The notes beneath the pieces were generated by a model that searched no databases, had not been told where the DNA came from, and worked only from the letters and a program-made list of their open reading frames with translations. The position numbers and the translations under genes are program-made. A stretch of 64,000 nucleotides of DNA from an uncultured Gammaproteobacteria bacterium (GTDB lineage Bacteria > Patescibacteriota > Microgenomatia > Levybacterales > UBA12049): positions 51,229 to 115,228 of the forward strand of contig CAZIDK010000001.1 of assembly GCA_964537895.1 (NCBI GenBank). The letters run 5' to 3'. Positions 7,439-34,672 of the stretch are shown piece by piece; the stretch's first letter is position 1; the number at the start of each line of letters is the position of its first letter.

Positions 7439-7458
7439 TAAGAGGAATTATACTACTT

Positions 7459-19162: not shown

Positions 19163-19261
19163 CTGATAAATTAATCTTATTTATCTTATAGGATGGCTGG
19201 ATAATGCCAAAAAAATGGCAAAGGTATTTCACCCTTTCCATTTGCTTCCTATAGAGTGCTA

Positions 19262-19430
19262 AGTTTATACCATAGAAATTAAGCCTGTGTCAAGGAGTAA
19301 AATTTACTCCGAAGACCCTGAGTTAAATCGAACGGGTCAAGCCCCAAATTACAAGAGCGCTGACCCTGAGCGTTACAATCCTGAGCGTAGTCGAAGGAAC
19401 GTCGAAGAGGCAAGGAGTAAAATTTATATC
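19262..19430. repeat. REP/MITE-like repeat, copy C, flanked by a 16-bp direct repeat
   Basis: The 16-mer caaggagtaaaattta occurs at 19291-19306 and 19411-19426. The core shares tcgaacgggtcaag, gaccctgagcgttacaatc and gtcgaaggaa modules with copy F. Confidence 0.55.
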
Positions 19431-19843
19431 AACTTTTCGTAAATTACAAAATCAACGTGGCGGTAATGGTTTTTTAAGTCTCCGGTTTTTACAAAGCCCA
19501 AGGATTCGTAAAATTTTCCCACCTCCCAAGTTTTTCCGGTTATAAGATAGGCTTTATGCCCGCCTTTTTCTTTTGCAAATTCCTCTGCCTTTTTAACCAA
19601 CGCTTTACCGACTCCCGAATGTCTTTTACCTTTTGCAACAATCAAATCATCTATATACAAAACGCCCTCTTGATATTTGCCCGCGATTATTCCCACTGTC
19701 TTACCGTCTTCTCCTGCTTTAAAAACATAATCTTCGTCAATCCACCCCGCTGACTTGCCGTAATATTTAATATCCGCATCAACCCATTCCTTGTCTCTAA
19801 ATTCTTTAATTTCTTCATTGGTAGATTTACTAATCGTAATCAT
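19424..19843 (-). CDS. GNAT family N-acetyltransferase
   Basis: KRHSGVGKALVKKAEEF acetyl-CoA-binding-like motif; 139 aa. Confidence 0.65.
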   Translation of the reverse strand: MITISKSTNEEIKEFRDKEWVDADIKYYGKSAGWIDEDYVFKAGEDGKTVGIIAGKYQEGVLYIDDLIVAKGKRHSGVGKALVKKAEEFAKEKGGHKAYLITGKTWEVGKFYESLGFVKTGDLKNHYRHVDFVIYEKLI

Positions 19844-19849
19844 ACAAAA

Positions 19850-19864
19850 ATTATACCACGCGGG
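19850..19864 (-). promoter_or_regulatory. Conserved promoter module CCCGCG-TGGTATAAT, 7 nt upstream of the ATG (leaderless)
   Basis: Minus sense: taatttCCCGCGTGGTATAATttttgtATG. The same module precedes the genes at 20733, 21859 and 22769. Confidence 0.55.
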
Positions 19865-20037
19865 AAATTAAATCATACTTACGCAAACCTTGCAATCCAA
19901 CAAAGAACGTTAAGGTTTTGTGACTGAGTGCGTCAGGGGAATTCCTCAGCTTACTGAAAGTGAGATTGAGGAAGGGGTGAAATTACCCGACAAACGAAGG
20001 AACAAAAATAGTTCGGCTTGGCTTGCAAAAAGTTTTG

Positions 20038-20058
20038 CGCTACTTTCCAAAAAGTAGC
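20038..20058 (-). terminator. Candidate hairpin terminator downstream of the 20102-20407 gene
   Basis: GCTACTTT-ccaa-AAAGTAGC 8-bp stem, then a ttttt-containing tail in minus sense. Confidence 0.35.
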
Positions 20059-20101
20059 AGAGAAAATTAAATCAAATAAAACCAGCTGCTAAGAAATCAA
20101 A

Positions 20102-20407
20102 CTAAATAATTTTTACTCTGTGAGTAAGAATATTTCCCCACGTCATCATTTGCTCGGCCCACTCAATTTTTTCCTGTTGGGTTTTTATGTTTTTTTTTTC
20201 AAGCAATAAGTATTCTTCCAAGAATTTATCAAAGGTTTTTTGAAAAGGCTTGGAAAGAGAGGATTTATCAATGGAATCTATATACTCTTTTGTTTCTTCC
20301 AAAAAAATATCTATTCTTTTTTTCTTTTTTTCGTAATCATCAGCCGCCAGATTTCCTATTCTATTTAGGTTCATGGCAATATCTAATATTTTTGCTTTAT
20401 TACTCAT
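20102..20407 (-). CDS. Hypothetical small protein (101 aa)
   Basis: ORF only; 4-nt overlap with the upstream gene. Confidence 0.4.
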   Translation of the reverse strand: MSNKAKILDIAMNLNRIGNLAADDYEKKKKRIDIFLEETKEYIDSIDKSSLSKPFQKTFDKFLEEYLLLEKKNIKTQQEKIEWAEQMMTWGNILTHRVKII

Positions 20408-20733
20408 AAAATTAAACTTTTAACTATTCTGTCAAATTCTTTTCTTATTTCGGAAGACATTATATCTCTTGACGGATTGTCCTCACTTGGACGAAGATTT
20501 ATTATTGAATTGTAATCTATTTCTTTTGTTTCTAAATCTACTCCTCCGCCCCAAAGATTTTGCTGTTTTGAGCCCTCACCCAAAAGTTTCTGTTCTCCTT
20601 CAAAATGTCTTTTTCCTCCCCCTGCTAAAATCTCCTGGTCAATATCAACAACTACTTTTATATAACCGTCGAAATCCTCTGCCATTTTTTTTATTTCTTC
20701 TTTAGTTGCTTTTTTATTTATAGTAAGAAGCAT
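20404..20733 (-). CDS. Hypothetical small protein (110 aa); possibly DUF5674-like, a weak recollection
   Basis: Start moved to the ATG at 20733 (MLLTINKK...), which is 9 nt downstream of a conserved CCCCGCGTGGTATAAT module (20743-20758). The ORF-track extension to 20874 would overlap the nuclease gene. Confidence 0.5.
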   Translation of the reverse strand: MLLTINKKATKEEIKKMAEDFDGYIKVVVDIDQEILAGGGKRHFEGEQKLLGEGSKQQNLWGGGVDLETKEIDYNSIINLRPSEDNPSRDIMSSEIRKEFDRIVKSLIL

Positions 20734-20742
20734 CGTTTTTTG

Positions 20743-20758
20743 ATTATACCACGCGGGG
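20743..20758 (-). promoter_or_regulatory. Conserved promoter module CCCCGCG-TGGTATAAT (leaderless), copy 2
   Basis: Minus sense: ccccgcgTGGTATAATcaaaaaacgATG. Confidence 0.55.
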
Positions 20759-20761
20759 AAA

Positions 20762-21469
20762 TTAAGGAAGTGATTCGCAGGCAAGTCCGTCGCCATCGGA
20801 GTCAAGTCTATGCGGATCGCTACTAGGCCCGCCTTGAGATATAAAAAAAGCTTGAGCTTGCGTATGAGTTGCAAAATCAGAGCAATCTTTATCTTCTGCT
20901 ATATTTTGAACAGGAACGCTTTTTGTTGTTGTTGGTTTTACAGTAGTTGGATTATTTACAGGACACGTCCCCCACAAACCCAGATTATTTTCTCTTGCAT
21001 ATCTTTCAAAACTATTAAACTTCTCAAGCATTTTTGTCGGATATTGTTTATAAGAAAAAGCATATCCTTGCTTTATCATTTCTCCATTAATAAAAGTCGC
21101 CTTGCTATCGGGTAAATATACATATCTAAGCAGTCTCTTGTATTTATCTCTGTTTCCCTGCGTTGAATCATCAACCAGTTTTACATATTTTCCTAAGACA
21201 AAAGATTTCATTTTGTCCGACGCGGCCTTACCAAAACACTGAACAGGTTTTCTCGGGTCAACGGTTTCCGGTGTATCTATTCCCAAAAGCCTTACGCTCT
21301 CGTTTTTTCCTCGAATACTAACAGTTATGGTATCTCCGTCGACAACCTTAACAACTTTAAATAATTTTTTCTTATCCATTTCTGAATCCTTATAAGAAAA
21401 GACGGGGTTAGTGTTAAAAACAGAAAGAAGTAAAAAAAACAAGAAGGCAAAAACAAACATTCTCTTCAT
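20762..21469 (-). CDS. Secreted thermonuclease (SNase-like) with a C-terminal Excalibur calcium-binding domain
   Basis: N-terminal signal peptide. A central region resembles the staphylococcal nuclease fold. C-terminal DSDGDGLACE matches the Excalibur DxDxDGxxCE motif. Confidence 0.6.
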   Translation of the reverse strand: MKRMFVFAFLFFLLLSVFNTNPVFSYKDSEMDKKKLFKVVKVVDGDTITVSIRGKNESVRLLGIDTPETVDPRKPVQCFGKAASDKMKSFVLGKYVKLVDDSTQGNRDKYKRLLRYVYLPDSKATFINGEMIKQGYAFSYKQYPTKMLEKFNSFERYARENNLGLWGTCPVNNPTTVKPTTTKSVPVQNIAEDKDCSDFATHTQAQAFFISQGGPSSDPHRLDSDGDGLACESLP

Positions 21470-21476
21470 ACCGGCA

Positions 21477-21485
21477 TTATATCAC
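21477..21485 (-). promoter_or_regulatory. Extended -10 (TGATATAAT) 6 nt upstream of the nuclease ATG
   Basis: Minus sense: ttaggTGATATAATgccggtATG. Confidence 0.45.
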
Positions 21486-21508
21486 CTAAAGTCAGCCGAG
21501 AAAATGAG

Positions 21509-21859
21509 TCATTTCAACTGGCTGTCTGAAAGACCAAAATGATGACCAATTTCGTGGATTACGGTTTGTCTAACTTGAGCTCTTACTTGTTCTTCCGTCT
21601 GCGCCACTTTTTCTATTGCGTTTTTAAAAATTGTGATCTTATCAGGAAGTGTGCTGTAGTAAATTCCTCTTTTCGTCTGCGGAACTCCTTCGTAAAGCCC
21701 CAGAAGTAAAACCCCGAACGGTAGCTTTGATTTTCTAAGTTGGTAAAATGTCGGAAAGTCATCAACAACTACCGAAACATTATTTAGTTTTTCCGCAAAT
21801 TCTTTTGGCATAGAATCCAAGGCTTCTGCAACCAATTCCCTAAATCTTTTTTCATCCAT
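21509..21859 (-). CDS. Small zincin-like metallopeptidase (HExxH)
   Basis: TVIHEIGHHFGLSD contains an HExxH zinc-binding motif; 116 aa. Confidence 0.5.
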   Translation of the reverse strand: MDEKRFRELVAEALDSMPKEFAEKLNNVSVVVDDFPTFYQLRKSKLPFGVLLLGLYEGVPQTKRGIYYSTLPDKITIFKNAIEKVAQTEEQVRAQVRQTVIHEIGHHFGLSDSQLK

Positions 21860-21869
21860 AAGTTAACAA

Positions 21870-21883
21870 ATTATACCACGGGG
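21870..21883 (-). promoter_or_regulatory. Conserved promoter module CCCCG-TGGTATAAT (leaderless), copy 3
   Basis: Minus sense: ccccgTGGTATAATttgttaacttATG. Confidence 0.55.
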
Positions 21884-21918
21884 AGATTTTGACTAGGAAG
21901 TCAAATTAAAATATGGAA

Positions 21919-21944
21919 GTTTAGTTTCTATATCATATATTAAT
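21919..21944. promoter_or_regulatory. 26-bp perfect palindrome TATATCATATATTAATATATGATATA
   Basis: Self-complementary over all 26 nt. Lies between the promoter of 21509-21859 and the 3' end of 22041-22769, so it could be an operator or a cruciform. Confidence 0.5.
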
Positions 21945-22040
21945 ATATGATATAACGGACGCATTACCGGAGCTGGATACTAAGCTTAGTAAGCTTAAAA
22001 GTCAGCGGGAGAATTTAAATTGGGCTAAGAAGTCAAATTA

Positions 22041-22769
22041 TTATTTAAAATATTCTTTTAGTTTTGCAATTTCTTGTTTATAGACTTCTTGGACTAAATC
22101 ATATTCCCAAGGGCTATGATCTTGTCCTTTAAGAATCATAAAAGGCTGGCCTTTTTCTTTAACTATTTCGATAACTTTTTCTCTCAACGGTTTGCTAATA
22201 AATCTGTCTTTCTCTCCGAAAACAAGATGTATTCCCCCCATATAATCCTGCAAACATTTAAAGACATTCGCGTCGTGTGCTTCTTTCCAAAACCTCCCTT
22301 TATATTTTTGTCCCCCTTCTTCAAATACCTCATCATAACCTCCTTTAAAATCTCCGTCGTTTACGCCGGGAACCCAAAGAAAAATACAGGGAATTTTATT
22401 TTTTATTTCCGTTCTTGAAGTAGCAACCGTAATTGCGGCGGCGCCCATGCTTTGCCCCATTAAAGTAACTTTATATCCCAAATCTAAATATTTCTTAGTA
22501 AAATAAACAATTGTGTTAATCCATTCGTTATAAGAAACGTCCAAAAAATCTCCATCGGAATTGCCGTTATTTGGCAGGTCAAAACGCAAAACCGAAAAGC
22601 CTTCTTTATTTAAAAGTCTTTGAAAATCAACAAACTGTCTTGCAGGCCCTACCGAAGCTCCTCTAAATCCATGAACCATAATTACTATCTTTTTTTGAGA
22701 TGAGTCGGGTTCGGAGAAATAACAAAAGATTTTCTTTCCGCTAATTTCTTCAAAATATACTTTCTCCAT
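22041..22769 (-). CDS. Alpha/beta hydrolase
   Basis: GQSMGAA nucleophile elbow (GxSxG) and an HG oxyanion motif (MVHGFRG). Confidence 0.7.
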   Translation of the reverse strand: MEKVYFEEISGKKIFCYFSEPDSSQKKIVIMVHGFRGASVGPARQFVDFQRLLNKEGFSVLRFDLPNNGNSDGDFLDVSYNEWINTIVYFTKKYLDLGYKVTLMGQSMGAAAITVATSRTEIKNKIPCIFLWVPGVNDGDFKGGYDEVFEEGGQKYKGRFWKEAHDANVFKCLQDYMGGIHLVFGEKDRFISKPLREKVIEIVKEKGQPFMILKGQDHSPWEYDLVQEVYKQEIAKLKEYFK

Positions 22770-22775
22770 AATATG

Positions 22776-22790
22776 AGTATATCACGGGGG
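22776..22790 (-). promoter_or_regulatory. Conserved promoter module CCCCCG-TGATATACT (leaderless), copy 4
   Basis: Minus sense: cccccgTGATATACTcatattATG. Confidence 0.45.
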
Positions 22791-22800
22791 AAAATTCGTG

Positions 22801-22895
22801 GCTAATTATAATCTCTTCGAGCTCCTCGAGTCTGAGCCTCGGCGTCGAAGACCTGAGTCTCAGAGCCGAAGGCCTGAGTGAGTCGAAGGAGAAGT
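22801..22895. repeat. REP/MITE-like repeat, copy D (contains an exact 45-nt duplicate of 40884-40928)
   Basis: 22813-22857 (ctcttcgagctcctcgagtctgagcctcggcgtcgaagacctgag) equals 40884-40928. Followed by imperfect ~13-nt tandem units (ccgaaggcctgag-like). Confidence 0.7.
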
Positions 22896-22927
22896 CAAAT
22901 TAATTTTTCTTGCCTTATAATCAAATT

Positions 22928-23134
22928 CTATTTTGTATTTATTAAAAAATAGGGGAGGTTTTCCTGTGGAACTTTGAATAACGTGGGTTTTTTATATCCC
23001 TTTTGTAAAGCCTCTTTGTAGGCCTTTTCGGCGTTTTTATTTGAGCTAATAACTTTTTTTAGAGATTCATCTAGGGCTACCCACATTCCTTTATATTTAT
23101 TGAATATTTTAGTCAAATTTGTACTCATTTTCAT
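22928..23134 (-). CDS. Small antitoxin-like protein (DUF5678-like)
   Basis: 68 aa; the KGMWVAL...KKVISS...KPTLFKVP pattern recalls DUF5678. No partner toxin gene is adjacent. Confidence 0.4.
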   Translation of the reverse strand: MKMSTNLTKIFNKYKGMWVALDESLKKVISSNKNAEKAYKEALQKGYKKPTLFKVPQENLPYFLINTK

Positions 23135-23173
23135 GTTGTGTTAATTATAACATAATAATGGAAATTGAAAAAC

Positions 23174-23257
23174 CCGCGGGTTGAGCGGAGCGAAATACTC
23201 CTTACTATGAGTAGAGCGAAATGGTGAGTGCGATTGAACCACTAAGAAGTCAGATTA
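23174..23257. repeat. Direct repeat flanking the toxin-antitoxin cassette, copy 1
   Basis: cgggttgagcgRagcRaaat...ggtgagtg...gaaccactaagaagtcaRatta, shared with 24040-24099 in the same orientation. Confidence 0.7.
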
Positions 23258-23409
23258 TAGACTTTGCACGTTCTCTTCAATTTTTGTCAGACAAACTCTG
23301 GGACATTGACTTTTTGACCAAAAGTGAGTAAACTTCTACGAAGTAGATGTTTACTTCAATACAGGATTATTTAGCTTTGATATAAAAATATTATAAGATA
23401 TAATTTAAT

Positions 23410-23616
23410 ATGCCAGATATAATTGAAACAAAACCAAACATCCTAGGCGGAATGCCAGTTATAAAAGGAACTAGGATTCCTATCGCGCGTGTTGTGGCAT
23501 TATATGTTCAAGGCTATAAGATAAAAGATTTCAAGAGAGATTATCCTTATCTCACAATTACAAAAGAGGATATAGCAAACATATTCTCCCATTATTCTCA
23601 CCTTGCATCAAAATAA
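23410..23616 (+). CDS. DUF433 family antitoxin-like protein
   Basis: GGMPVIKGTRIPIARVV matches the DUF433 core. TATAAT is 5 nt upstream of the ATG. Confidence 0.6.
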   Translation: MPDIIETKPNILGGMPVIKGTRIPIARVVALYVQGYKIKDFKRDYPYLTITKEDIANIFSHYSHLASK

Positions 23617-23962
23617 GAATACAAACAAAAAGCGTAAGTTTAGATTATTATTAGATTCTGCATTTGCTAAACCTGATCAATTTCCCAAGCTAGCTAAAAA
23701 GGCAAAGTTATTACATGTAGTTCATGATTTGGGATTATCTAAACAGGCTGCGGATATAGATATCTACCAAAAGGCACTTGAAGAAAACTGCTTCGTATTA
23801 ACAATTAACTTTAGGCATTTTAGGAAGTTTGTTGTTAGTGGTAAACCGGGAGTAATTGGAATAGATTCGCAGCTGTCTAATGACGAAATTGACTCAATTG
23901 TTGTAAAGTTTATCTCTGGGAAAAATCCTGATGACTTTCTAGGAAAAGCTATTAAAATTTAA
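23603..23962 (+). CDS. DUF5615 (PIN-like / Mut7-C RNase-like) toxin-like protein
   Basis: LLLDSAF...VVHDLGL...ADIDIYQKALEENCFVLTINFRHF...GVIGI pattern of DUF5615. Overlaps the DUF433 gene by 14 nt, a typical toxin-antitoxin arrangement. Confidence 0.55.
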   Translation: MHQNKNTNKKRKFRLLLDSAFAKPDQFPKLAKKAKLLHVVHDLGLSKQAADIDIYQKALEENCFVLTINFRHFRKFVVSGKPGVIGIDSQLSNDEIDSIVVKFISGKNPDDFLGKAIKI

Positions 23963-24045
23963 CTGCTTTCTACAATTTTTATTTCTTCCGGAGTGAGGGC
24001 TGAAAGATTAGTCCAAAAAACCGCAGAGGCTAAGGTTTTCCCGCC
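23959..24045 (-). pseudogene. Remnant 3' end of a DNA methyltransferase-like gene (ends ...LSALTPEEIKIVESS*)
   Basis: The minus-strand frame encodes the TaqI_C-like C-terminal tail (LTxEEIxIVE) seen in N6-adenine methyltransferases / type IIG enzymes, but no long ORF precedes it. The 21-mer ttctacaatttttatttcttc recurs at 26050-26070. Confidence 0.4.
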
Positions 24046-24099
24046 GGGTTGAGCGAAGCAAAATGGTGAGTGAAATCGAACCACTAAGAAGTCAAATTA
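24040..24099. repeat. Direct repeat flanking the toxin-antitoxin cassette, copy 2
   Basis: Matches 23174-23257 and ends with the same gaaccactaagaagtcaaatta motif. Confidence 0.7.
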
Positions 24100-24118
24100 A
24101 TTTTTCGACTCTAAAGAT

Positions 24119-24781
24119 TTATAGTTGTTCCGTTAAGAATCTTTGCACTCCTTCAAGCATAGATTTGACATCCTCTGTCTTGTATTCACTAAATTTACCA
24201 TGGTCAGCACTGTCTCTTATTGCTTTCCAGGCTTGGATTTGTTTCTGAAGCAATCGATTGTAAATTTCTTTGTCTGCTAACTTTGCATTAAGCGATCCAA
24301 TATCATCGCCTGATTTGACATCTATTGTGTGTTTTTGTGCAATTTGTCTTAAACCGTTTTCTAAAACAGCACCTACAAGAGAAGCAGCGGAGTCTTTATA
24401 ATTATTGTCCAAAAGATGTTTGGCCATCTGGATAAAATCAGTAAAAATCTCTGCGCTTACTAAATCCCTAACTTTCGTTAAATATCCAAGTTCCAGATCT
24501 TCCTTCAGCGCTTTAAGAATGCCTACACCGTGATCAACATCTCCCGGGAAGGCTGACTTAACTTCCTCAACAAAATTTTTATAATAAGGGCTGTTTTCTC
24601 CGCAAACCAACAGGATGAAGTTTTGTGCATTATTTTTCCACTCGTGAAACGAAGCAGTATTAACTCTGTCAGGAGCCACAGCATAAGCCGAACTGTTGCT
24701 ATAACGCGTAGAAGCAACGCTTTGTGCTTTTGTCAGAAGCTGTGTAGCGCGTTCAATAAGTTTTTCTGTTGTTGAGTTCAT
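24119..24781 (-). CDS. HEPN-like protein (Rx4H motif near the C-terminus)
   Basis: All-helical 220-aa protein with AIRDSADHGKF (R-x4-H), the HEPN RNase signature. Sits 20 nt downstream of the DUF1508 gene and has its own GAGGA Shine-Dalgarno. Confidence 0.4.
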   Translation of the reverse strand: MNSTTEKLIERATQLLTKAQSVASTRYSNSSAYAVAPDRVNTASFHEWKNNAQNFILLVCGENSPYYKNFVEEVKSAFPGDVDHGVGILKALKEDLELGYLTKVRDLVSAEIFTDFIQMAKHLLDNNYKDSAASLVGAVLENGLRQIAQKHTIDVKSGDDIGSLNAKLADKEIYNRLLQKQIQAWKAIRDSADHGKFSEYKTEDVKSMLEGVQRFLTEQL

Positions 24782-24801
24782 ATTTTAATTTCCTCTAAAA
24801 A

Positions 24802-25005
24802 TTATGTTTCTACAGGATAAGTTCTGTAAATATTTGCAGCCGCTGCATTAGCTATGACTAGATTCGCTGCATGAACTGCATCAGCCTCGTTTTCATAGGA
24901 TTCACTCCAGCAGATATCGTTTCCATTGGATGAAACAAATACAAAATAAATTTGCCCATCCCTATTCTTTCTTAGTTCAAATTTAAATTCTCCCATTTTT
25001 ACCAC
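24802..25005 (-). CDS. DUF1508 (YegP-like) single-domain protein
   Basis: FELRKNRDGQIYFVFVSSNGNDICWSESYENEADAVHAANLV matches the YegP/UPF0339 repeat unit. Confidence 0.55.
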   Translation of the reverse strand: MVKMGEFKFELRKNRDGQIYFVFVSSNGNDICWSESYENEADAVHAANLVIANAAAANIYRTYPVET

Positions 25006-25020
25006 CTGCCTTTTTCCCTG

Positions 25021-26044: not shown

Positions 26045-26185
26045 GAATTTTCTACAATTTTTATTTCTTCGGGGGTTAGTCCGTAAAGTTTGTAAACTTC
26101 TTCATCGATTTTTTTATCTATCTTTTCAATTTCAGCTTTTATCGAATTCCATTGATTAGAATTTTCTGAAGTAGCCAATATTTTT
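26041..26185 (-). pseudogene. Remnant 3' end of a DNA methyltransferase-like gene (ends ...IDEEVYKLYGLTPEEIKIVENS*)
   Basis: The minus-strand frame reads SENSNQWNSIKAEIEKIDKKIDEEVYKLYGLTPEEIKIVENS*, a TaqI_C-like C-terminal tail. Only about 45 codons, preceded by a stop. Shares ttctacaatttttatttcttc with 23968-23988. Confidence 0.45.
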
Positions 26186-26220
26186 TTTATTTAAAATCAA
26201 AATTTGATTATTTAAATCCA

Positions 26221-26940
26221 TTAAATACTATTGCTGATAATACCACTTTCTTTAAAACTAAAATATTCATCTGAAGTAACTATCAGATGATCAATTATTG
26301 AAATACCTACTAATTTACCTGCTTCTACAAGTCTATTTGTTGTAGATATATCTTCCTCTGATGGTTTGGAATCTCCTGATGGATGATTGTGAGAAATAAT
26401 AATTTGTGCGATATTTTCTTTTATGGCCTTTTTAAAAACTTCTCTGGGATGCACTAAGCTTGCATTTAAGGTACCAATGCTAATTTCTTCGTTTATTAAT
26501 TTATTTCGTGTATCAAAATACAAAATTGTAAAATGTTCTTCTTTTTTACTTCCTATTTTTGTTTGAAGATAGTCAGCAACTAATTTAGAAGAATTTAATA
26601 AAATTTTAGATGATATTTTTTCTTTGGAATATCGCTCAGAAATCGCTTTAAATAAAATTAACCCCAAAGCATTTGAACGACCAATTCCCTTAATTGCAAT
26701 TAATTCTATTATATCTGCATCCAATACTCCTTTGAGATTTTTGAACTTTTTAATAGCCTCTTTGGCTATTTGTTTGCAATCTTTACGCGGAGTACCCAAT
26801 GTCAACAATAATTCAACTATCTCGTAATCCAAAAATCCATTTAAACCAGAATCAATAAATTTTTCTCGGAGTCTTTTTCTATGCCCTTCGGAGTGATTTA
26901 TTTTTTTAATATTTGAATCAGAAATGCTTTTATTTTTCAT
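26221..26940 (-). CDS. RadC-like JAB/JAMM domain protein
   Basis: C-terminal HNHPSGDSKPSEEDISTTNRL matches the RadC JAMM metal-binding motif (HxHP...SxxD). N-terminal RPRERL-like GHRKRLREKF. Start placed at the ATG at 26940, overlapping the upstream gene stop by about 11 nt. Confidence 0.75.
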   Translation of the reverse strand: MKNKSISDSNIKKINHSEGHRKRLREKFIDSGLNGFLDYEIVELLLTLGTPRKDCKQIAKEAIKKFKNLKGVLDADIIELIAIKGIGRSNALGLILFKAISERYSKEKISSKILLNSSKLVADYLQTKIGSKKEEHFTILYFDTRNKLINEEISIGTLNASLVHPREVFKKAIKENIAQIIISHNHPSGDSKPSEEDISTTNRLVEAGKLVGISIIDHLIVTSDEYFSFKESGIISNSI

Positions 26941-28855
26941 TAGTCTCTTTATCGATATTAAATGAAGCTCCATTGGAATCATTATCGTATAAAGTAGAAC
27001 TTATTCTTTGATTACTTAAATGTTTTTCAAAATAACCTTGAGTTTCTGGATCAACTGAGTAAATATAACAACCTTTCATTCCTCTAGTCATGAGTGTTCG
27101 ATATGTGTTTTTAATAATCATATCTGCCATTCTTTTTGACTCTTCTGGATTTTCTTTAAGCCTTTTCTTTATTCCCTTGAATGACTGATCAGAAGATGCT
27201 CGTTTTGTTGCATCAGTAATAATCTTGCCATTTCGAACAACCATATCTGGACCAATTATTACTCCTACATAGTCCAACTCCAGCCCTTGAGAAGTATGTA
27301 TGCAGCCCACCTCACTTACAGAATCAGGATGAATTAACCACGATTGACCATGTAAATATAAATTCCAAGTCGCCTTATAATCATCAATCACGATATCCTT
27401 TAATTTAGCATTTTTCTTGCTTATCCATTTCCAACAATAACCTGCTAACAATCTTGATTTATTATTTTCTTGATTTAGGTCAATTATTTTTTTATGAAGA
27501 ATCGAAGGATTATCCATAACTTTAAAATCATAATTAATATCTTCTAATGATTCATTTGCTGTTTCTCTTATCTGTAATAAATTATCAATCCAGGCTAAGT
27601 AACCATCTGATCCATTACATCTAAACTGCGAAGCTAACTCTAGAGATGTGACTTTTGCTCCCAAGCTTTCTGCCCATTTTATAATTTCTGACTTTTTACC
27701 TATATCTTTCAATGTAACTCTTTGGTTCTCATCGATAAAAAAAACACAAAGCTTGGACACATTTATTAACTCTTTTATTTGATTTTCTCCTAAATGACTA
27801 AACAGTCCTGACTTGGCATTAAGTCTATGCGCCTCATCAACAATAAGTGAATCAAAAGTATTAGCTTCAATATCATAAAATGAACCAGACGAGCTAAATA
27901 AATTTGAGATACGAGTTTTTGTAAATTTACCACTGAGTTTCACTTGGTATACTTCACGAGGTGCTGAATTTTTTGTGACGTATTGCGTAACATTCCCTCT
28001 TTTCGTAAGCTCTGTTAATAAGTTTATTGCAACAATTGATTTACCAGTACCAGGACCTCCTTCGACTATCAGCACATTTTTATTACGCTCAGATGATTCT
28101 TCTGCTAGTTTAAGCGCAGTTTCATATACGATTTTTTGATCATCGATTAGTATGAATTCCTTGTTACCCTCAAGCATTGAAGCAAGACTATCAACTAATG
28201 CCTTTGATGGCCTAATTTTTCCATTTTCAATACTATACAAGATATTTGTTTTATCACCATATTTTACAAATCTTTTTATAAATTCTTGTAATTTTAAGGC
28301 ATCGGTTTTTAGAAAAGCAGGGGCCTTGTCTGTGTATTCCTTATAAAAAACATTGGTAATAATATCGTCTGCCTCGTAATTATGAAGATATGCGCAGGGA
28401 ACTAGAGATATGTTATCTGTTTGAACAGCACTATTAAAATCTTCTAATAATGTTGCATACGACCAGACTTGATATGATGGGTGGGGAACTTCTCCATAAA
28501 AATTTGTATTAAGAACCCCATCTTTTTCAGTCAAACTAACACCTTCACTCCATTGTTTCAACTCGACAATTACGGCTACTTTTCTGTTCTCATTATTTGT
28601 ACCGGTAATTATAAAATCTATACGTTTAGACGTTTGAGGAATTTTATATTCAATTGCAATACCAGCATCATCAGGAATACTCGAATCGTTAATAACATTA
28701 CTCATATAAGGCATGGACTTACGCCATGAGTTAATCTCGCTTTTACCTGTGGCGTGTCCCATCTCGCGTACAAATGAAGTAAGAATTTGTTGTTCTACCT
28801 GTCCAGACAAAACATCACTTAAAAACCCCTTTTTATTAGATGAATAAACGATCAT
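26930..28855 (-). CDS. Fusion protein: N-terminal PD-(D/E)xK nuclease-like domain plus DUF2075-type SF1-helicase-like P-loop ATPase
   Basis: N-terminus RIDFIITG...VAVIVELKQW (D...ELK). Walker A VEGGPGTGKS and Walker B LIVDEAHRL. The C-terminal CIHTSQGLELDYVGVII resembles the helicase 2B motif. 641 aa. Confidence 0.65.
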   Translation of the reverse strand: MIVYSSNKKGFLSDVLSGQVEQQILTSFVREMGHATGKSEINSWRKSMPYMSNVINDSSIPDDAGIAIEYKIPQTSKRIDFIITGTNNENRKVAVIVELKQWSEGVSLTEKDGVLNTNFYGEVPHPSYQVWSYATLLEDFNSAVQTDNISLVPCAYLHNYEADDIITNVFYKEYTDKAPAFLKTDALKLQEFIKRFVKYGDKTNILYSIENGKIRPSKALVDSLASMLEGNKEFILIDDQKIVYETALKLAEESSERNKNVLIVEGGPGTGKSIVAINLLTELTKRGNVTQYVTKNSAPREVYQVKLSGKFTKTRISNLFSSSGSFYDIEANTFDSLIVDEAHRLNAKSGLFSHLGENQIKELINVSKLCVFFIDENQRVTLKDIGKKSEIIKWAESLGAKVTSLELASQFRCNGSDGYLAWIDNLLQIRETANESLEDINYDFKVMDNPSILHKKIIDLNQENNKSRLLAGYCWKWISKKNAKLKDIVIDDYKATWNLYLHGQSWLIHPDSVSEVGCIHTSQGLELDYVGVIIGPDMVVRNGKIITDATKRASSDQSFKGIKKRLKENPEESKRMADMIIKNTYRTLMTRGMKGCYIYSVDPETQGYFEKHLSNQRISSTLYDNDSNGASFNIDKETNEK

Positions 28856-28857
28856 AA

Positions 28858-29205
28858 TTATAATTTGTTATATTTAGTGTGCTTTCCTTTTGCTTTTTTA
28901 ACAGGGTATTTCTTCTTATTTTCCTTCATTTTTTTATCGAAAGCTTTTAGTAAGTCTATGTTTAAATCGTGGCTCATTAACAAAGTCCAATACAAGACAT
29001 CGGAAAGTTCATCAGCAATTTCATTCTTATGTTTTTTAACATATTCATCCATTTCTTCTTTACTTTGCCAAAGAAAATGCTGTAAAACTTCAGAAGCCTC
29101 TAGGGAAAGCGCAATAGAAGAATCTTTTGGATTATGAAACTGCTTCCAATCTCTTGCGTTGCGATATTTAATTATAATATCTATTAAATTTTTGATATCC
29201 GACAT
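28858..29205 (-). CDS. MazG-like all-alpha nucleotide pyrophosphohydrolase
   Basis: RNARDWKQFHNPKD...ALSLEASEVLQHF...EIADELSDVLYW matches the MazG/YpjD NTP-PPase helix pattern. 115 aa; 2-nt gap to the downstream gene. A TAAAAT -10 lies 6 nt upstream of the ATG. Confidence 0.6.
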   Translation of the reverse strand: MSDIKNLIDIIIKYRNARDWKQFHNPKDSSIALSLEASEVLQHFLWQSKEEMDEYVKKHKNEIADELSDVLYWTLLMSHDLNIDLLKAFDKKMKENKKKYPVKKAKGKHTKYNKL

Positions 29206-29366
29206 GCTTGGATTTTAACACTTTTGATAATTTTTAGAAAGGATGGGCAATTGGTCTCCATCTTTACTTCCAGATAGACGTTTTTGGAATACCCGTAAAC
29301 CCTAGAACATTTTTAGGAGAAACAAACTCGAATTAGACTCAGGAGATCTTGATCTTAAATTGAGAG

Positions 29367-30722
29367 CTAATCGTTTTCAGGAAGCATTATTGATCCCGCA
29401 TAAGTCAGCGATTTAATTTTCCCGCTTTTATCAAATATATAGCGAACTAATTCTCCTTCCGAATAAAATCCGTTTGTGGCACCTATTTTGAGAGTATTTC
29501 CATCAATGAATTTTAACTGCTCGATGCCTTCAAAGGGACTAAAGACATCCGGATACACGGAAACTAGATGATTTCCCATGGAAACCACATCCACTACGCC
29601 AAAAATATTCTTAAATAGCCCTCCAAACTTGTCTAAGTCTTCTTTGGAATCCAATGAATAATGTTTTTCAAAATAATCGAACACTGATAATATTCCTCTT
29701 GTAATGTATAAGGAATTACCGTCAATACAATTAGTCAGAACTGTAATAACCAGTTTGTTTTTAGGATCGCATATTGTAGTCGTGTTCTGCCCGGGAAAGC
29801 CGCCCGTGTGACCGAAAACTTCACGTTTACCCATGTTTGAGATTATAAATCCTAATCCGTATTTTTTCTCGATAGAGCCCTTTGGAATTTTTACAACACT
29901 TGATTGCATTATTTTTTTTGAATCATCAGTAAGGAGTTTTCCCGAACCTATTAGATGTGCTTCAAAATATTTGCATAAATCTTCCGAAGTTGAATAAAAA
30001 CCGGTTGCTGCGGACATTATTTTTGTGTCGATTTCTAAAGGAAAGGGCTTTCTTTTTTTACCGTCTTTTCTTGAGTATCCCGTTACGAGTTTTTCTTTTA
30101 CACCGGAAAAATATTCGGGCCCTGTATTTTGTAATCCCAGAGGTTTTATTATATTTTCAACAACATAATCATTGTAGGAACTCCCTGAAACTTTTTCTAT
30201 GATAAGCCCAAGCAAAGTAAATCCGAAATTTGAATATTTCATTTTTTTACCGCTTCTTAGAACCAGATCCGCTTTCAGAACTTCTTTTTTAAATTCATCA
30301 CTGTCGGGAAAGGATTTTGTAAGAAGCCAAAAATTTGAGTCAAGGCCGTCTCGGATTACCCCCGCGCTATGGGAAAGAAGTTGCTTTATTGTTATTTTTT
30401 GAATAAGTTTATCTTCGTGTTCCCTCAACCACGGCAAATACATAACAGCCGGATCGTCTAGCTTAATTTTCTTTTTCTCAACAAGCTGCATAATTGCAGT
30501 TGCGGTAAAGGTTTTTGAATGGGACGCAATGCGAAAAATATGGTTAGGCGTAAGCTTTTCTTTTTTTTCAATATTGGCATATCCGTATGATTTATTAAAC
30601 AGGATTTTGCCTTCATAAGAAACAGCTACGGTAAACCCCGACCAGTATTCGCTTACTCTATAACGGTAATCTAGCCAGGAACTGATAAATTTTATTGCTT
30701 TCAAAAGCTTTTTACTATTCAC
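29367..30722 (-). CDS. Beta-lactamase-family serine hydrolase (PBP/esterase-like) with a C-terminal extension
   Basis: FRIASHSKTFTATA contains the SxxK active-site motif. 451 aa. GTG start, preceded by TATAAT 7 nt upstream. Confidence 0.65.
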   Translation of the reverse strand: MNSKKLLKAIKFISSWLDYRYRVSEYWSGFTVAVSYEGKILFNKSYGYANIEKKEKLTPNHIFRIASHSKTFTATAIMQLVEKKKIKLDDPAVMYLPWLREHEDKLIQKITIKQLLSHSAGVIRDGLDSNFWLLTKSFPDSDEFKKEVLKADLVLRSGKKMKYSNFGFTLLGLIIEKVSGSSYNDYVVENIIKPLGLQNTGPEYFSGVKEKLVTGYSRKDGKKRKPFPLEIDTKIMSAATGFYSTSEDLCKYFEAHLIGSGKLLTDDSKKIMQSSVVKIPKGSIEKKYGLGFIISNMGKREVFGHTGGFPGQNTTTICDPKNKLVITVLTNCIDGNSLYITRGILSVFDYFEKHYSLDSKEDLDKFGGLFKNIFGVVDVVSMGNHLVSVYPDVFSPFEGIEQLKFIDGNTLKIGATNGFYSEGELVRYIFDKSGKIKSLTYAGSIMLPEND

Positions 30723-31002
30723 GAGATGGATTATAGCAGAATATAATTATTTAAAAAGTCTGTAGTAAAATTTAGCTTCCGCGTCGCAAATGATTTGATT
30801 TAGGACGTAAAATTGAGACTAACAGCATTACTCGAGATTATAAGATTAATTGAAATTTTATAAATATTTTTTGATGTTTTCAGGGAAAGGTCTGCAGGCA
30901 CAGTTTTTCGAATGCTCTTTATGCCACTTAACCCTATCAACAAGCTTAGGGTTCTTAATCATTCTGTTTTTCTTATGCCACCCTGCATTTATTTTCATAA
31001 TT

Positions 31003-34671: not shown

Positions 34672-34672
34672 T

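What the first reader, a model, noticed from the sequence alone, without database searches (positions are those of the whole stretch)
19163..31000. Accessory/defence-like island of about 12 kb inserted immediately upstream of rpoB
In most bacteria rplKAJL lies directly upstream of rpoBC. Here rpoB is preceded by repeat-rich DNA and a run of small, individually promoted genes: GNAT, hypothetical proteins, a secreted Excalibur nuclease, a mini metallopeptidase, an alpha/beta hydrolase, DUF5678, DUF433/DUF5615, DUF1508/HEPN, XRE/ImmA, the MazG-DUF2075-RadC trio, a beta-lactamase-like protein and a DUF2207 protein. Gene content and repeat density mark this as a variable island rather than core genome.
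Basis: inference. Interest (0 to 1): 0.6.

Follow-up and report, generated by a model that had tools for sequence, protein, structure and literature searches.

The report
Variable gene-cassette island upstream of rpoB
The 13.6 kb between rpoB and alaS in this ultra-small (Levyibacteriota, CPR) bacterium is a real, strain-variable stretch of accessory, toxin-antitoxin and defence-like gene cassettes at a spot that gains and loses genes across the whole lineage; this is an ordinary kind of genomic island, but it carries one unusually well-conserved, horizontally spreading three-gene module.

Summary
Three independent per-run assemblies tile the region at 100% identity.

The island is the whole rpoB-alaS spacer, 19163-32787 (13,625 bp), not 19163-31000. 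The organism is a Candidatus Levyibacteriota.

- **Ancestral neighbour.** In this phylum rplKAJL is never upstream of rpoB. The neighbour is the divergent alaS-hyp779-sortase-PYNP-YceG block.
- **Variable spacer.** In 60 related loci the spacer ranges from 152 to 8,531 bp (median 1,066).
- **Closest relative.** It has 93% RpoB identity, is collinear on both flanks, and lacks 11.4 kb of the window's island.

The half nearest rpoB holds single-gene cassettes (GNAT, DUF5674 pair, secreted nuclease, Zincin_1, DUF5678, DUF433/DUF5615). These recur at the same locus in relatives, in shuffled order, and share promoter-like motifs.

The far half holds a CapH/CapP-like regulator pair, an orphan HEPN gene, and a MazG-like/Nhi-like DUF2075/RadC operon. 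That helicase is 88% identical to a Daviesbacteria copy, where RpoB is only 63% identical. DUF2207 there is a relocated resident gene.

I found no integrase, tRNA or att repeats.

Verdict: a flexible hotspot island, a new member of a known kind. The mechanism of gene flux is inferred, not shown.

The parts
19163..32787 (.). Whole flexible spacer (the island) between the divergent start codons of rpoB and alaS; 13,625 bp
   Evidence: Both flanks are collinear with relatives. The spacer is 152-8,531 bp in 60 related loci. Window 21430-32791 is absent from the closest relative L082. GC is 0.342 against 0.381 for the rest of the window.
15740..19162 (-). rpoB, the conserved left flank
   Evidence: ORF and translation. 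66-93% aa identity to 160 Levyibacteriota loci.
32788..34671 (+). alaS, the conserved right flank and first gene of the alaS-hyp779-sortase-PYNP-YceG block
   Evidence: Pfam tRNA-synt_2c. The block lies next to rpoB in 60 loci in divergent orientation and in 17 loci inverted.
19163..19423 (-). rpoB promoter and leader region. It carries small insertions absent from L082, including a ~46-bp insert that splits and duplicates the TTGAC -35 box, and two copies of AAATTTTACTCCTTG.
   Evidence: Side-by-side sequence with L082.
19424..19843 (-). GNAT acetyltransferase cassette, next to rpoB
   Evidence: Pfam Acetyltransf_10, 2.9e-14. Also adjacent to rpoB in L082, L083, L084 and L124 at 68-78% identity.
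20102..20733 (-). Two-gene cassette: DUF5674 (20404-20733) followed by a 101-aa protein (20102-20407), with a 4-nt overlap
   Evidence: Pfam DUF5674, 1.3e-25. The same pair sits between alaS and rpoB in L137 and L148. DUF5674 is internally deleted in L082. DUF5674 plus a ~90-aa ORF also occurs in L164.
20762..21469 (-). Secreted staphylococcal-nuclease plus Excalibur cassette
   Evidence: Pfam SNase 2.6e-24 and Excalibur 1.2e-5. N-terminal hydrophobic signal sequence. 90% identical copy at the same locus in L082; also in L102, L118 and L127.
21509..21859 (-). Zincin_1 mini metallopeptidase cassette (HEIGH motif)
   Evidence: Pfam Zincin_1, 8.3e-29. The commonest cassette: found upstream of rpoB in about 25 related loci.
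22041..22769 (-). alpha/beta hydrolase cassette
   Evidence: Pfam Abhydrolase_1, 2.8e-9. No close counterpart in relatives.
22928..23134 (-). DUF5678 small protein, solitary
   Evidence: Pfam DUF5678, 2.3e-8. 83-86% identical copies upstream of rpoB in L105, L122 and L127. Paired with an aspartic-protease gene next to rpoB in Daviesbacteria L163.
23410..23962 (+). DUF433 (23410-23616) and DUF5615 PIN-like (23603-23962) overlapping pair; a putative type II toxin-antitoxin module
   Evidence: Pfam DUF433, 6.4e-15. DUF5615 1.3e-4, 22.2 bits against a cut-off of 23.8. The same pair is present near rpoB in L100, L102 and L163.
23963..24010 (-). Gene-tail scar reading ...LSALTPEEIKIVESS*
   Evidence: Repeat D6 and sequence. 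The same tail abuts DUF5615 in L100.
24119..25005 (-). DUF1508 (24802-25005) and a 220-aa HEPN protein (24119-24781, RDSADH motif)
   Evidence: Pfam HEPN 2.1e-5, DUF1508 3.2e-10. Homologues are 77-87% identical in Woese- and Amesbacteria. There they lie in HTH_17-HEPN220-Mod-Res operons, so the window copy is an orphan.
25059..26044 (+). HTH (XRE-like, 25059-25457) and ImmA/IrrE M78 peptidase (25457-26044, HEIGH): a CapH/CapP-like regulator pair, divergent from DUF1508-HEPN across a 53-bp spacer
   Evidence: Pfam Peptidase_M78, 1e-7. PADLOC capP 1.8e-14 and capH 2.9e-3. Face-to-face promoter-like sites at 25021-25049(+) and 25073-25045(-).
26045..26180 (-). Gene-tail scar reading ...EEVYKLYGLTPEEIKIVENS*, directly downstream of RadC
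   Evidence: Sequence. A similar tail follows RadC in L163, L162, L166-168 and L170.
26221..29205 (-). Three-gene operon: MazG-like (28858-29205), PD-(D/E)xK-like + DUF2075 SF1 helicase (26930-28855), RadC/JAB (26221-26982)
   Evidence: Pfam. PADLOC PDC-S41 3.7e-22, AbiO 1.5e-16, Nhi 2.4e-15. The same trio occurs in 8 of 8 contexts with unrelated flanks. 80-87% DNA identity begins at the MazG ATG and ends at the RadC stop. Against Daviesbacteria L163: DUF2075 88% but RpoB 63%.
29367..30722 (-). beta-lactamase-family serine hydrolase
   Evidence: Pfam Beta-lactamase, 4.6e-60. No counterpart in any fetched locus.
30858..30998 (-). 46-aa ORF MKINAGWHKK...CACRPFPENIKKYL, 5 nt after DUF2207
   Evidence: tblastn 58% identity over 43 aa in the rpoB-upstream gaps of L003 and L115. 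No Pfam family.
31003..32694 (-). DUF2207 membrane protein with a Gly-rich tail; a resident Levyibacteriota gene sitting here next to alaS
   Evidence: Pfam DUF2207 and DUF2207_C. Homologues run 84% down to 58% within Levybacteria. They are on the rpoB contigs of L006 and L009 but more than 10 kb from rpoB.
21894..24099 (-). Span holding copies of the 16-nt motif TAATTTGACTTCTTAG at cassette junctions: 21894-21908, 22026-22040, 22888-22902, 23243-23257, 24085-24099. A degenerate copy lies outside this span at 20090-20104.
   Evidence: The same motif, in the same orientation relative to rpoB, occurs in the gaps of L002, L003, L005 and L010. There it is often followed 17 nt later by TAnnnT and then by ATG.
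19850..22789 (-). Span holding the four copies of the extended -10 motif CCSCGTGGTATAAT (19850-19863, 20743-20756, 21870-21883, 22776-22789), each 8-12 nt before the start codons of GNAT, DUF5674, Zincin_1 and the hydrolase
   Evidence: 4 found against 0.31 expected, all in the island. Conserved in L082 upstream of the DUF5674 remnant.

Best explanation
The rpoB-alaS spacer of this Levyibacteriota genome is a chromosomal gene-flux hotspot: a flexible, additive genomic island that has no mobility genes of its own.

Two very conserved, divergently transcribed blocks, rpoBC-rpsLG and alaS-to-YceG, frame a spacer. Self-contained cassettes are added to that spacer, shuffled and deleted. In this genome the spacer has grown to 13.6 kb.

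**Half nearest rpoB (about 19.2-24.0 kb).** This is a lineage-wide pool of one- and two-gene cassettes, each with its own promoter-like element:
- GNAT
- DUF5674 plus a partner ORF
- a secreted nuclease
- Zincin_1
- a hydrolase
- DUF5678
- the DUF433/DUF5615 toxin-antitoxin-like pair

**Far half (about 24.0-32.8 kb).** This holds later arrivals:
- an orphan HEPN RNase-like gene with DUF1508
- a CapH/CapP-like HTH plus metallopeptidase switch that probably derepresses its neighbour on DNA damage or infection
- a MazG-like / nuclease-helicase (Nhi-like DUF2075) / RadC operon that moves horizontally among CPR phyla as a unit
- a serine hydrolase
- a relocated resident DUF2207 gene

**Shown:** variability, boundaries, cassette sharing and shuffling, the HGT signature of the trio, and deletion scars.

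**Inferred:**
- Exchange occurs by homologous recombination in the conserved flanks, or by illegitimate or short-repeat recombination after DNA uptake.
- The defence-like modules actually defend.
For: - **Synteny.** The flanks are collinear in about 160 loci. The spacer is 152-8,531 bp (median 1,066) in 60 loci and more than 10 kb in at least some of 19 others.
- **Closest relative.** L082 (RpoB 93%) aligns at 80-87% DNA identity on both sides but has only SNase, a hyp101-like ORF and GNAT in a 1.84-kb spacer.
- **Diverse content.** 232 ORFs from the relatives' spacers form almost no shared clusters; the largest cluster has 5 members. They include restriction enzymes, methyltransferases, PD-(D/E)XK, GIY-YIG, Fic, GNAT, NUDIX and cupins.
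- **Cassette-level homology.** Cassette-sized homology blocks end at gene boundaries, and cassette order differs between relatives.
- **The trio.** It is identical in architecture in 8 of 8 contexts. Homology is limited to the three ORFs. It is far more conserved than RpoB between phyla. It sits at the same rpoB-upstream spot in a Daviesbacteria genome, together with DUF433/DUF5615 and DUF5678.
- **Decay scars.** Truncated DUF5674 in L082; gene tails at 23963-24010 and 26045-26180.
- **Composition.** Lower GC.
- **Defence resemblance.** PADLOC hits to capP/capH, PDC-S41, AbiO and Nhi.
- **Not an assembly artefact.**
Against: - No recombination event or mechanism is observed directly.
- Codon usage does not differ from core genes.
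- Several cassettes (GNAT, SNase, Zincin_1) are semi-conserved at this locus. DUF2207 looks vertically inherited. So part of the 'island' is long-resident or rearranged rather than imported.
- Only a minority of genes match known defence families, and none was tested for function.
- In the 19 loci without alaS within 10 kb I cannot separate 'very long spacer' from 'rearranged'. Some of them clearly have other core genes upstream, such as GroEL/ES, SecDF and MurJ.
Confidence: 0.8

Rival explanations
1. The segment is one decayed integrative mobile element (a prophage, ICE/IME or satellite remnant) that inserted upstream of rpoB as a single event.
For: - 11.4 kb is missing as one block from the closest relative.
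- An XRE/ImmA pair and RadC are common on mobile elements.
- In other genomes the trio neighbours Bro-N, KilA-N, a reverse transcriptase and an rve transposase.
Against: - No integrase, recombinase, transposase, relaxase or structural phage gene lies in 19163-32787.
- No tRNA lies in or beside it.
- No direct repeats are seen at the L082-defined junctions.
- DUF2075, HEPN and ImmA have no relatives in IMG/VR.
- The block is a mosaic whose parts occur separately in different relatives.
- DUF2207 looks like a resident gene.
Confidence: 0.07
2. The region is mostly resident genes brought together by chromosomal rearrangement (inversion or translocation with a breakpoint at the rpoB-alaS spacer), not by horizontal acquisition.
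For: - DUF2207 homologues show a vertical-like gradient. They are on the same contigs as rpoB in L006 and L009, but far from it.
- The alaS block itself is inverted in a distant clade.
- More distant relatives have other core genes upstream of rpoB.
- Codon usage is native.
Against: - The trio and HEPN-220 are 75-92% identical to copies in other CPR phyla whose core proteins are 48-63% identical. Rearrangement cannot explain this.
- Cassette content differs among near relatives.
Confidence: 0.08
3. It is an integron-like cassette array in which the repeated 16-nt motif, or nearby hairpins, serve as recombination sites for a recombinase encoded elsewhere.
For: - Co-oriented single-gene cassettes.
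- The motif lies at six junctions in one orientation, and in the same locus of four relatives.
- Cassette order is shuffled between relatives.
- Logan contigs break at repeat-bearing spacers.
Against: - In relatives the motif reads as a TTGACT -35 box, followed at 17 nt by TAnnnT and then ATG. That makes it a promoter.
- The cassettes carry their own promoters, unlike integron cassettes.
- No intI-like gene is in the window.
- No shared attC-like fold appears in the spacers, and there is no Rfam hit.
- The motif is absent from the far half of the island.
Confidence: 0.04
4. It is an assembly or binning chimera, or a conserved lineage-specific core block.
For: The window comes from a metagenome-type assembly. 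The repeats could in principle mis-join contigs.
Against: - Three independent per-run Logan contigs, each seen in 3-4 samples, tile 14560-39189 at 100% identity and overlap at their ends.
- A core block is excluded by the synteny comparison.
Confidence: 0.01

Closest known systems
Core defence hotspots, i.e. chromosomal HGT hotspots framed by core genes (for example cDHS1/2 of Pseudomonas aeruginosa, PMC10250203)
   Same: A fixed position between conserved core genes. Content differs from strain to strain. It mixes defence, toxin-antitoxin and miscellaneous genes. Often there is no integrase.
   Different: - Here the frame is rpoB and alaS in a roughly 1-Mb CPR genome.
- The cargo is mostly very small single-gene cassettes with a shared promoter motif.
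- Only a few genes match known defence families.
- The hotspot is shared across at least two CPR phyla.
Genomic islands and Patescibacteria-to-Patescibacteria HGT described in groundwater CPR genomes (PMC12455944)
   Same: An island in a streamlined CPR genome. The donors appear to be other CPR. The horizontally transferred fraction is enriched for defence functions.
   Different: That study predicted islands by composition (IslandViewer) and does not mention rpoB or hotspots. Here the island is defined by synteny against about 160 loci, and it is compositionally almost native.
Nhi (Staphylococcus epidermidis SERP2475; bioRxiv 10.1101/776245) and 'Nhi-like' (bioRxiv 10.1101/2022.05.11.491447)
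   Same: An N-terminal PD-(D/E)xK-type motif (E69, D80, E98-x-K100 invariant) followed by a DUF2075 SF1 helicase. The PADLOC Nhi, AbiO and PDC-S41 models all hit.
   Different: - Nhi is a single-gene system. Here the gene is always the middle of a MazG-like / DUF2075 / RadC operon (8 of 8 contexts).
- The Nhi model matches only the helicase part.
- The nuclease fold could not be confirmed.
- No functional test was done.
CapH/CapP DNA-damage-responsive regulators of immune operons (bioRxiv 10.1101/2022.04.27.489752)
   Same: A small HTH protein followed by an IrrE/ImmA-type HExxH metallopeptidase in one operon, divergent from a putative effector operon. PADLOC capP scores 1.8e-14.
   Different: - The capH match is weak (2.9e-3).
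- The neighbouring 'effector' is only DUF1508 plus an orphan HEPN protein.
- HEPN-220 elsewhere has an HTH_17 partner, not this pair.
Integron cassette arrays and additive flexible genomic islands
   Same: A co-oriented array of small cassettes with a repeated junction sequence. Order and content vary between relatives.
   Different: The cassettes have their own promoters. There is no integrase and no attC-like structure, and the repeat looks like a promoter.

Membership tests
Flexible genomic island / HGT hotspot framed by core genes | Flanking genes conserved and collinear in relatives | tested here: met
   rpoBC-rpsLG-fusA and alaS-hyp779-sortase-PYNP-YceG flank the spacer in 77 loci. DNA collinearity with L082 holds on both sides.
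Flexible genomic island / HGT hotspot framed by core genes | Presence/absence and content variation between close relatives | tested here: met
   The spacer is 152 bp to more than 8.5 kb. Window 21430-32791 is absent from L082. 232 spacer ORFs form almost no shared clusters.
Flexible genomic island / HGT hotspot framed by core genes | Evidence of horizontal origin for the cargo | tested here: met
   - Met for the trio and HEPN-220: DUF2075 is 88% identical where RpoB is 63% (L163), and 87% where RpoB is 72% (L164/L032).
- Not met for DUF2207.
- GC is lower (p = 1.8e-5) but codon usage is native.
Defence island | Clustering of several recognised defence systems | tested here: inconclusive
   PADLOC hits only ImmA/XRE (capP/capH), DUF2075 (PDC-S41, AbiO, Nhi) and SNase (a domain-level hit). 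The other 14 proteins have no hit. No complete known system was recognised.
Integrative mobile element (prophage / ICE / IME) | Integrase or recombinase gene | tested here: not met
   None among the island ORFs of 60 aa or more.
Integrative mobile element (prophage / ICE / IME) | att direct repeats, or a tRNA/tmRNA target, at the borders | tested here: not met
   No tRNA by ARAGORN or Rfam in 19000-33000. The junctions defined against L082 share no repeat.
Integron / CALIN | attC sites (imperfect hairpins with R'' and R' boxes) after each cassette | tested here: not met
   Spacer folds show no shared hairpin. The repeated motif behaves as a -35 box. A dedicated attC model (HattCI or IntegronFinder) was not available.
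Integron / CALIN | Promoterless cassettes read from a common Pc promoter | tested here: not met
   Extended -10 boxes lie 8-12 nt before four start codons, and there are further gene-proximal promoter-like sites.
Nhi / Nhi-like nuclease-helicase | DUF2075 SF1 helicase domain with Walker A and B motifs | tested here: met
   Pfam SLFN-g3_helicase, 3.1e-106. GGPGTGKS and DEAHR are invariant.
Nhi / Nhi-like nuclease-helicase | N-terminal PD-(D/E)XK nuclease domain | tested here: inconclusive
   E69, D80 and E98-x-K100 are invariant in 31 homologues. However there is no Pfam nuclease hit, no PDB sequence hit, the AF2 model is poor, and Foldseek found nothing significant.
Nhi / Nhi-like nuclease-helicase | Acts as a stand-alone gene; confers phage resistance | not testable with these tools
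   Here the gene is always flanked by MazG-like and RadC. Function is untested.
CapH/CapP regulator pair | IrrE/ImmA-type HExxH metallopeptidase directly after a small HTH protein | tested here: met
   Peptidase_M78 1e-7. The HEIGH motif is visible in the sequence. capP 1.8e-14. HTH_3 is weak and capH is 2.9e-3. The ORFs abut at 25457.
CapH/CapP regulator pair | Controls an adjacent immune operon; cleavage triggered by ssDNA | not testable with these tools
   Only the divergent arrangement with DUF1508-HEPN across 53 bp is seen.
Type II toxin-antitoxin (DUF433 antitoxin / PIN-like DUF5615 toxin) | Two small overlapping genes with the two domains, kept together in other genomes | tested here: met
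   A 14-nt overlap. DUF433 scores 6.4e-15. DUF5615 scores 22.2 bits, just under its cut-off of 23.8. The pair is adjacent in L100, L102 and L163. Toxicity is untested.
HEPN RNase | HEPN fold with an Rx4-6H motif | tested here: met
   Pfam HEPN scores 25.1 bits against a cut-off of 22. RDSADH lies near the C-terminus and is conserved in the Woesebacteria copy.

The most novel reading that the evidence does not exclude
The rpoB-upstream spacer is a cassette-exchange site shared across CPR phyla. Small promoter-bearing cassettes are captured, reordered and lost through recombination at a conserved junction sequence (TAATTTGACTTCTTAG), using a recombinase encoded elsewhere or no dedicated recombinase at all. 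In effect this would be an integron-like system without an integron. The MazG-like / Nhi-like / RadC operon would be one of its cargoes, currently sweeping through CPR.
Probability: 0.07. Interest if true: 0.75.

Novelty: new member of a known kind. Interest (0 to 1): 0.4.

Why it matters
CPR bacteria have tiny genomes and are often described as poor in defence systems and in mobile elements. This locus shows that, even so, they keep a dedicated high-turnover site right beside the RNA polymerase operon. That site is easy to find, because rpoB and alaS are universal markers.

**A practical probe.** The site could be used to harvest accessory and defence genes from CPR metagenomes.

**A candidate defence system.** The most concrete lead is the MazG-like / DUF2075 nuclease-helicase / RadC operon:
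- It is invariant in architecture.
- It is 68-92% identical across at least eight CPR lineages.
- It is more conserved between phyla than RpoB.
- I found no paper describing it.

If it is an immune system, it would be a multi-gene relative of Nhi, and a rare defence module that is both highly mobile and highly conserved.

Otherwise the finding is an ordinary flexible genomic island.

Tried and rejected
1. **tRNA-fragment idea.** The repeat at 23208-23257 and 24050-24099 contains a stretch that can be drawn as a T-arm plus acceptor strand, which would suggest an old tRNA att site. Rfam at E <= 10 found no tRNA signal. The window's only tRNA (9806-9907) is unrelated. Dropped.
2. **attC / integron reading.** No shared hairpin in the spacers and no integrase. 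In relatives the motif behaves as a -35 box.
3. **Generic sigma-70 and terminator scan.** Not above the shuffled expectation. Uninformative in 34% GC DNA.
4. **Pfam on the 'LYGLTPEEIKIVE' tail.** No hit. My recollection that this is the C-terminus of type IIG / TaqI_C-type methyltransferases remains untested. The Eco57I/TaqI_C protein in L171 ends with a loosely similar ...FGLTTDEKQYIKNS.
5. **AlphaFold2 of the DUF2075 protein with 31 homologues.** Mean pLDDT 52.6. Foldseek-PDB best E-value was 0.14. No conclusion about the nuclease fold.
6. **PDB sequence search.** No hit.
7. **IMG/VR scans for DUF2075, HEPN-220 and ImmA.** Nothing.
8. **Source look-up through the 100% identical HEPN protein P0121.** Not on record. 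The DUF2207 search points to a 294,612-bp NCBI contig.
9. **Codon-adaptation comparison.** No difference between island and core genes.
10. **Literature on the trio.** None found.

Full report
**What is there.** The window has rpoC at 12007-15747 and rpoB at 15740-19162, both on the minus strand, and alaS at 32788-34671 on the plus strand. Between the two divergent start codons lie 13,625 bp (19163-32787).

- GNAT
- a 101-aa ORF plus DUF5674
- a signal-peptide SNase+Excalibur nuclease
- Zincin_1
- an alpha/beta hydrolase
- DUF5678
- overlapping DUF433 and DUF5615, the latter just under its cut-off
- DUF1508 plus a 220-aa HEPN protein
- a weak-HTH protein plus an M78 (ImmA/IrrE) peptidase
- MazG-like, DUF2075 (SLFN-g3 helicase) and RadC
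- a beta-lactamase-family protein
- a 46-aa ORF
- DUF2207

The rest of the window is housekeeping: tuf, fusA, rpsG, rpsL, FtsK, RNase J, PNPase, IF-2, NusA and ClpB. It contains no rplK, rplA, rplJ or rplL.

**Is it real?** Three contigs assembled independently from single sequencing runs are 100% identical to the window and overlap end to end:
- L001 = window 14560-20033
- L173 = window 20007-22839
- L172 = window 22828-39189

Their break points fall in the two spacers that carry the GC-rich repeats. The structure is therefore not a binning or assembly chimera. The two short overlaps themselves are spanned only by the window's own assembly.

**Whose genome, and what is normally upstream of rpoB.** A scan of species-representative genomes with RpoB returned 80 loci. 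Nearly all are Candidatus Levyibacteriota, at 65-82% identity. A metagenome scan with the RpoB N-terminus added 80 more, including L082 on an 863-kb contig, with RpoB 93% identical.

I ran tblastn of every window protein against these loci. The result:
- The window's flanks are the conserved order of the lineage: FtsK-HTH, then YceG-PYNP-sortase-hyp779-alaS reading away from rpoB, then rpoB-rpoC-rpsL-rpsG-fusA.
- In 60 loci alaS is divergent from rpoB. The spacer there is 152 to 8,531 bp, with a median of 1,066 bp. Fourteen loci have less than 250 bp.
- In 17 loci of a distant clade the alaS block is inverted, so YceG abuts rpoB at 150-529 bp.
- In 19 loci with at least 9.5 kb of upstream sequence the alaS block is not seen.

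No ribosomal-protein family appears among the leading families listed by Pfam (25 per set) for upstream ORFs. The conclusion, that this is a variable island, still stands.

**The closest relative.** L082 aligns with the window at 80-87% DNA identity through the alaS block and through rpoBC. Its spacer is only 1.84 kb and holds:
- SNase (90% aa identity)
- fifteen codons of DUF5674 fused to a hyp101-like ORF
- GNAT (78%)

Window 21430-32791 (11,362 bp) has no counterpart; L082 has 128 bp there. The DUF5674 remnant shows a deletion in L082 rather than an insertion here.

The window also has small extra pieces in the rpoB promoter region. One is a ~46-bp insert that splits and duplicates the TTGAC box.

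**Content of the spacer in relatives.** 232 ORFs from the spacers of the nearer relatives form almost no clusters; the largest has five members.

Pfam families found there include Tsp45I and Mrr restriction enzymes, methyltransferases, PD-(D/E)XK, GIY-YIG, Fic, GNAT, NUDIX, cupins, an ECF-type sigma factor and an AcrB pump. The position is therefore a general accessory hotspot with a defence and toxin-antitoxin flavour, not a pure defence island.

**Two halves.**

*Half nearest rpoB.* Genes of this half recur at the same locus in relatives, in different combinations and orders:
- Zincin_1 in about 25 loci, often directly before rpoB
- GNAT in 10
- DUF5674, with its partner ORF in some, in 8
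- SNase in 4
- DUF5678 in 5
- DUF433/DUF5615 in 4

Examples of the order: L122 and L127 have Zincin_1-DUF5678-rpoB. L102 has SNase-Zincin_1. The window has DUF5678-hydrolase-Zincin_1-SNase-DUF5674-hyp101-GNAT-rpoB. DNA homology blocks end at gene boundaries.

This half also carries two island-specific motifs:
- CCSCGTGGTATAAT is an extended -10 box. All four window copies are in the island, 8-12 nt before start codons; 0.31 are expected by chance.
- TAATTTGACTTCTTAG occurs in six copies, all in one orientation. It occurs in the same orientation in the spacers of the four nearest genome-set relatives and nowhere else in 1.5 Mb of loci. In those relatives it is typically followed 17 nt later by TAnnnT and soon after by ATG. 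I therefore read it as the -35/UP part of a shared cassette promoter. Several window copies lack a -10 box and may be orphaned.

*Far half.* HEPN, DUF1508, XRE, ImmA, RadC, DUF2075, beta-lactamase-like and DUF2207 have no counterpart near rpoB in any of the 160 Levyibacteriota rpoB loci.

**The trio.** MazG-like, DUF2075 and RadC occur together, in the same order and abutting, in all eight other contexts examined. The neighbours are unrelated: Fic, PD-(D/E)XK, a reverse transcriptase, HicA, KilA-N, Bro-N, DUF3800 and a type I R-M system.

DNA identity of 80-87% starts at the MazG ATG and stops at the RadC stop codon.

Homologues of the helicase are 68-92% identical across Levy-, Davies-, Woese-, Gottesman-, Roizman-, Pacei-, Moran- and Andersenbacteria.

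Against the Daviesbacteria locus L163 the identities are:

| Protein | Identity to window |
|---|---|
| DUF2075 | 88% |
| RadC | 75% |
| MazG-like | 62% |
| RpoB | 63% |
| RpoC | 57% |
| AlaS | 48% |

That is a clear signature of transfer between phyla. In L163 the trio also lies between the YceG block and rpoB, with a DUF5615/DUF433 pair and a DUF5678 gene. So the rpoB-upstream hotspot is shared by at least two CPR phyla.

PADLOC places the helicase nearest PDC-S41, AbiO and Nhi. E69, D80 and E98-x-K100, plus Walker A and B, are invariant in 31 homologues. That matches the nuclease-helicase layout described for Nhi (bioRxiv 10.1101/776245) and Nhi-like (bioRxiv 10.1101/2022.05.11.491447).

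The nuclease fold could not be confirmed, because the model was poor and gave no significant structural match.

My working model is inference only. The helicase-nuclease is the effector against invading DNA. The MazG-like pyrophosphohydrolase acts on nucleotide pools or signals. RadC acts as a JAB-type accessory.

**Other modules.**
- *ImmA-like and HTH pair.* The ImmA-like peptidase matches capP (1.8e-14). The HTH protein matches capH weakly (2.9e-3). The pair is divergent from DUF1508-HEPN across 53 bp that hold face-to-face promoter-like sites. This is the layout of CapH/CapP switches (bioRxiv 10.1101/2022.04.27.489752).
- *HEPN-220.* It carries an RDSADH motif. It is 77-87% identical to Woese- and Amesbacteria proteins. 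There it is always the second gene of HTH_17-HEPN220-Mod-Res operons. The window copy therefore looks like an orphan.
- *Gene-tail scars.* Two short scars (...LTPEEIKIVE..*) lie after DUF5615 and after RadC. They are found in the same positions in other genomes, so cassettes carry debris of earlier neighbours.
- *DUF2207.* It behaves differently. Its homologues fall off smoothly from 84% to 58% within Levybacteria. They lie on the rpoB contigs of L006 and L009, but more than 10 kb away. It is a resident gene that has ended up here.

**Composition.** GC is 0.342 in the island and 0.381 elsewhere (gene-level Mann-Whitney p = 1.8e-5; GC3 p = 0.04). Adaptation to the codon usage of the core genes is the same, 0.712 against 0.715. 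This is as expected if the donors are other CPR.

**Mobility.** I found no integrase, transposase or relaxase. There is no tRNA in or beside the island. There is no repeat at the junctions defined by L082, no attC-like fold, and no relatives in viral contigs.

The most economical mechanism is turnover at a permissive site between two divergent, highly conserved operons. Homologous recombination in the flanks would bring in segments, and short-repeat or illegitimate recombination would add, reorder and delete cassettes. This mechanism is inferred, not shown.

**Comparison and verdict.** The locus behaves like the core-gene-framed hotspots known from other bacteria (for example PMC10250203). It also fits the reported prevalence of islands and intra-CPR gene transfer in Patescibacteria (PMC12455944). 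I file it as a new member of a known kind.

The parts that go beyond the ordinary are:
- the cross-phylum conservation of the hotspot
- the shared promoter motif of the cassettes
- the undescribed, very conserved and mobile MazG-like / Nhi-like / RadC operon

Noticed in passing
window 9806-9907 (-): Rfam finds a tRNA (51.3 bits) that ARAGORN misses. It has a CAT anticodon loop (ctCATta) and about 30 extra nucleotides after the anticodon stem, either an intron or an unusually long variable region. It lies in the rpsG-fusA gap.
   Followed up: partly
window 9559-10911: The rpsG-fusA spacer is 1.35 kb here (the tRNA plus a 292-aa ORF with no family). It is only 42 bp in the closest relative L082 and 0.2-2.9 kb in others. 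This is a second small variable spot inside the str-operon region.
   Followed up: partly
window 1577-7458: The fusA-tuf interval holds eight accessory genes: a histidine phosphatase, GNAT, GDPD, two unknowns, HAD, LMW phosphatase and an epimerase fragment. GC is 0.346, like the island. It contains the only extra-island copy of the TAATTTGACTTC motif (4059-4073), placed 15 nt before a TATAAT box and the next ATG. The interval length varies in relatives.
   Followed up: partly
window 26045-26180 (-) and 23963-24010 (-); also L163:10665-10763, L100:151-222, L162:13739-13846: A conserved gene-tail fragment (..YKLYGLTPEEIKIVENS*) travels with two different cassettes, after RadC and after DUF5615, in several genomes. 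It has no Pfam hit. It resembles methyltransferase or type IIG C-termini only by my recollection.
   Followed up: partly
window 30858-30998 (-): A 46-aa ORF (MKINAGWHKKNRMIKNPKLVDRVKWHKEHSKNCACRPFPENIKKYL) lies 5 nt after DUF2207. It is 58% identical to ORFs in the rpoB-upstream spacers of L003 and L115. No known family.
   Followed up: no
window 21929-21954: A perfect 26-nt palindrome, TATATCATATATTAATATATGATATA, lies between the hydrolase stop and the Zincin_1 promoter. The surrounding spacer folds far better than shuffles (z = -3.8). It may be an operator or a terminator.
   Followed up: no
loci L062-L081 (distant Levyibacteriota clade): The whole alaS-to-YceG block is inverted relative to rpoB, so alaS reads towards rpoB and YceG abuts it at about 160 bp. 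This clade has almost no insertions at the rpoB junction. It shows 1.7-2.1 kb insertions between PYNP and YceG in L073 and L080.
   Followed up: partly
window 19295-19433 and 22800-22890: GC-rich degenerate repeats of the type CTGAGYnnRGTCGAAGG occur in the spacers, with further copies at 39166-39189 and 40972-40988 outside the island. They are absent from the corresponding L082 positions, so they look like small inserted repeat elements. Independent contigs break there.
   Followed up: partly
L164 (same contig as L032, 418,546 bp) and L162: In other Levybacteria the trio sits in separate defence-type clusters far from rpoB. L164 has Fic, a Cas4-like PD-(D/E)XK, RE_endonuc, NERD and an rve transposase, and also a DUF5674 plus 90-aa pair. 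L162 has DUF3800, Bro-N, an HTH/Gp49 pair, PLD and a type I HsdR. The same cassettes therefore circulate between several hotspots.
   Followed up: no
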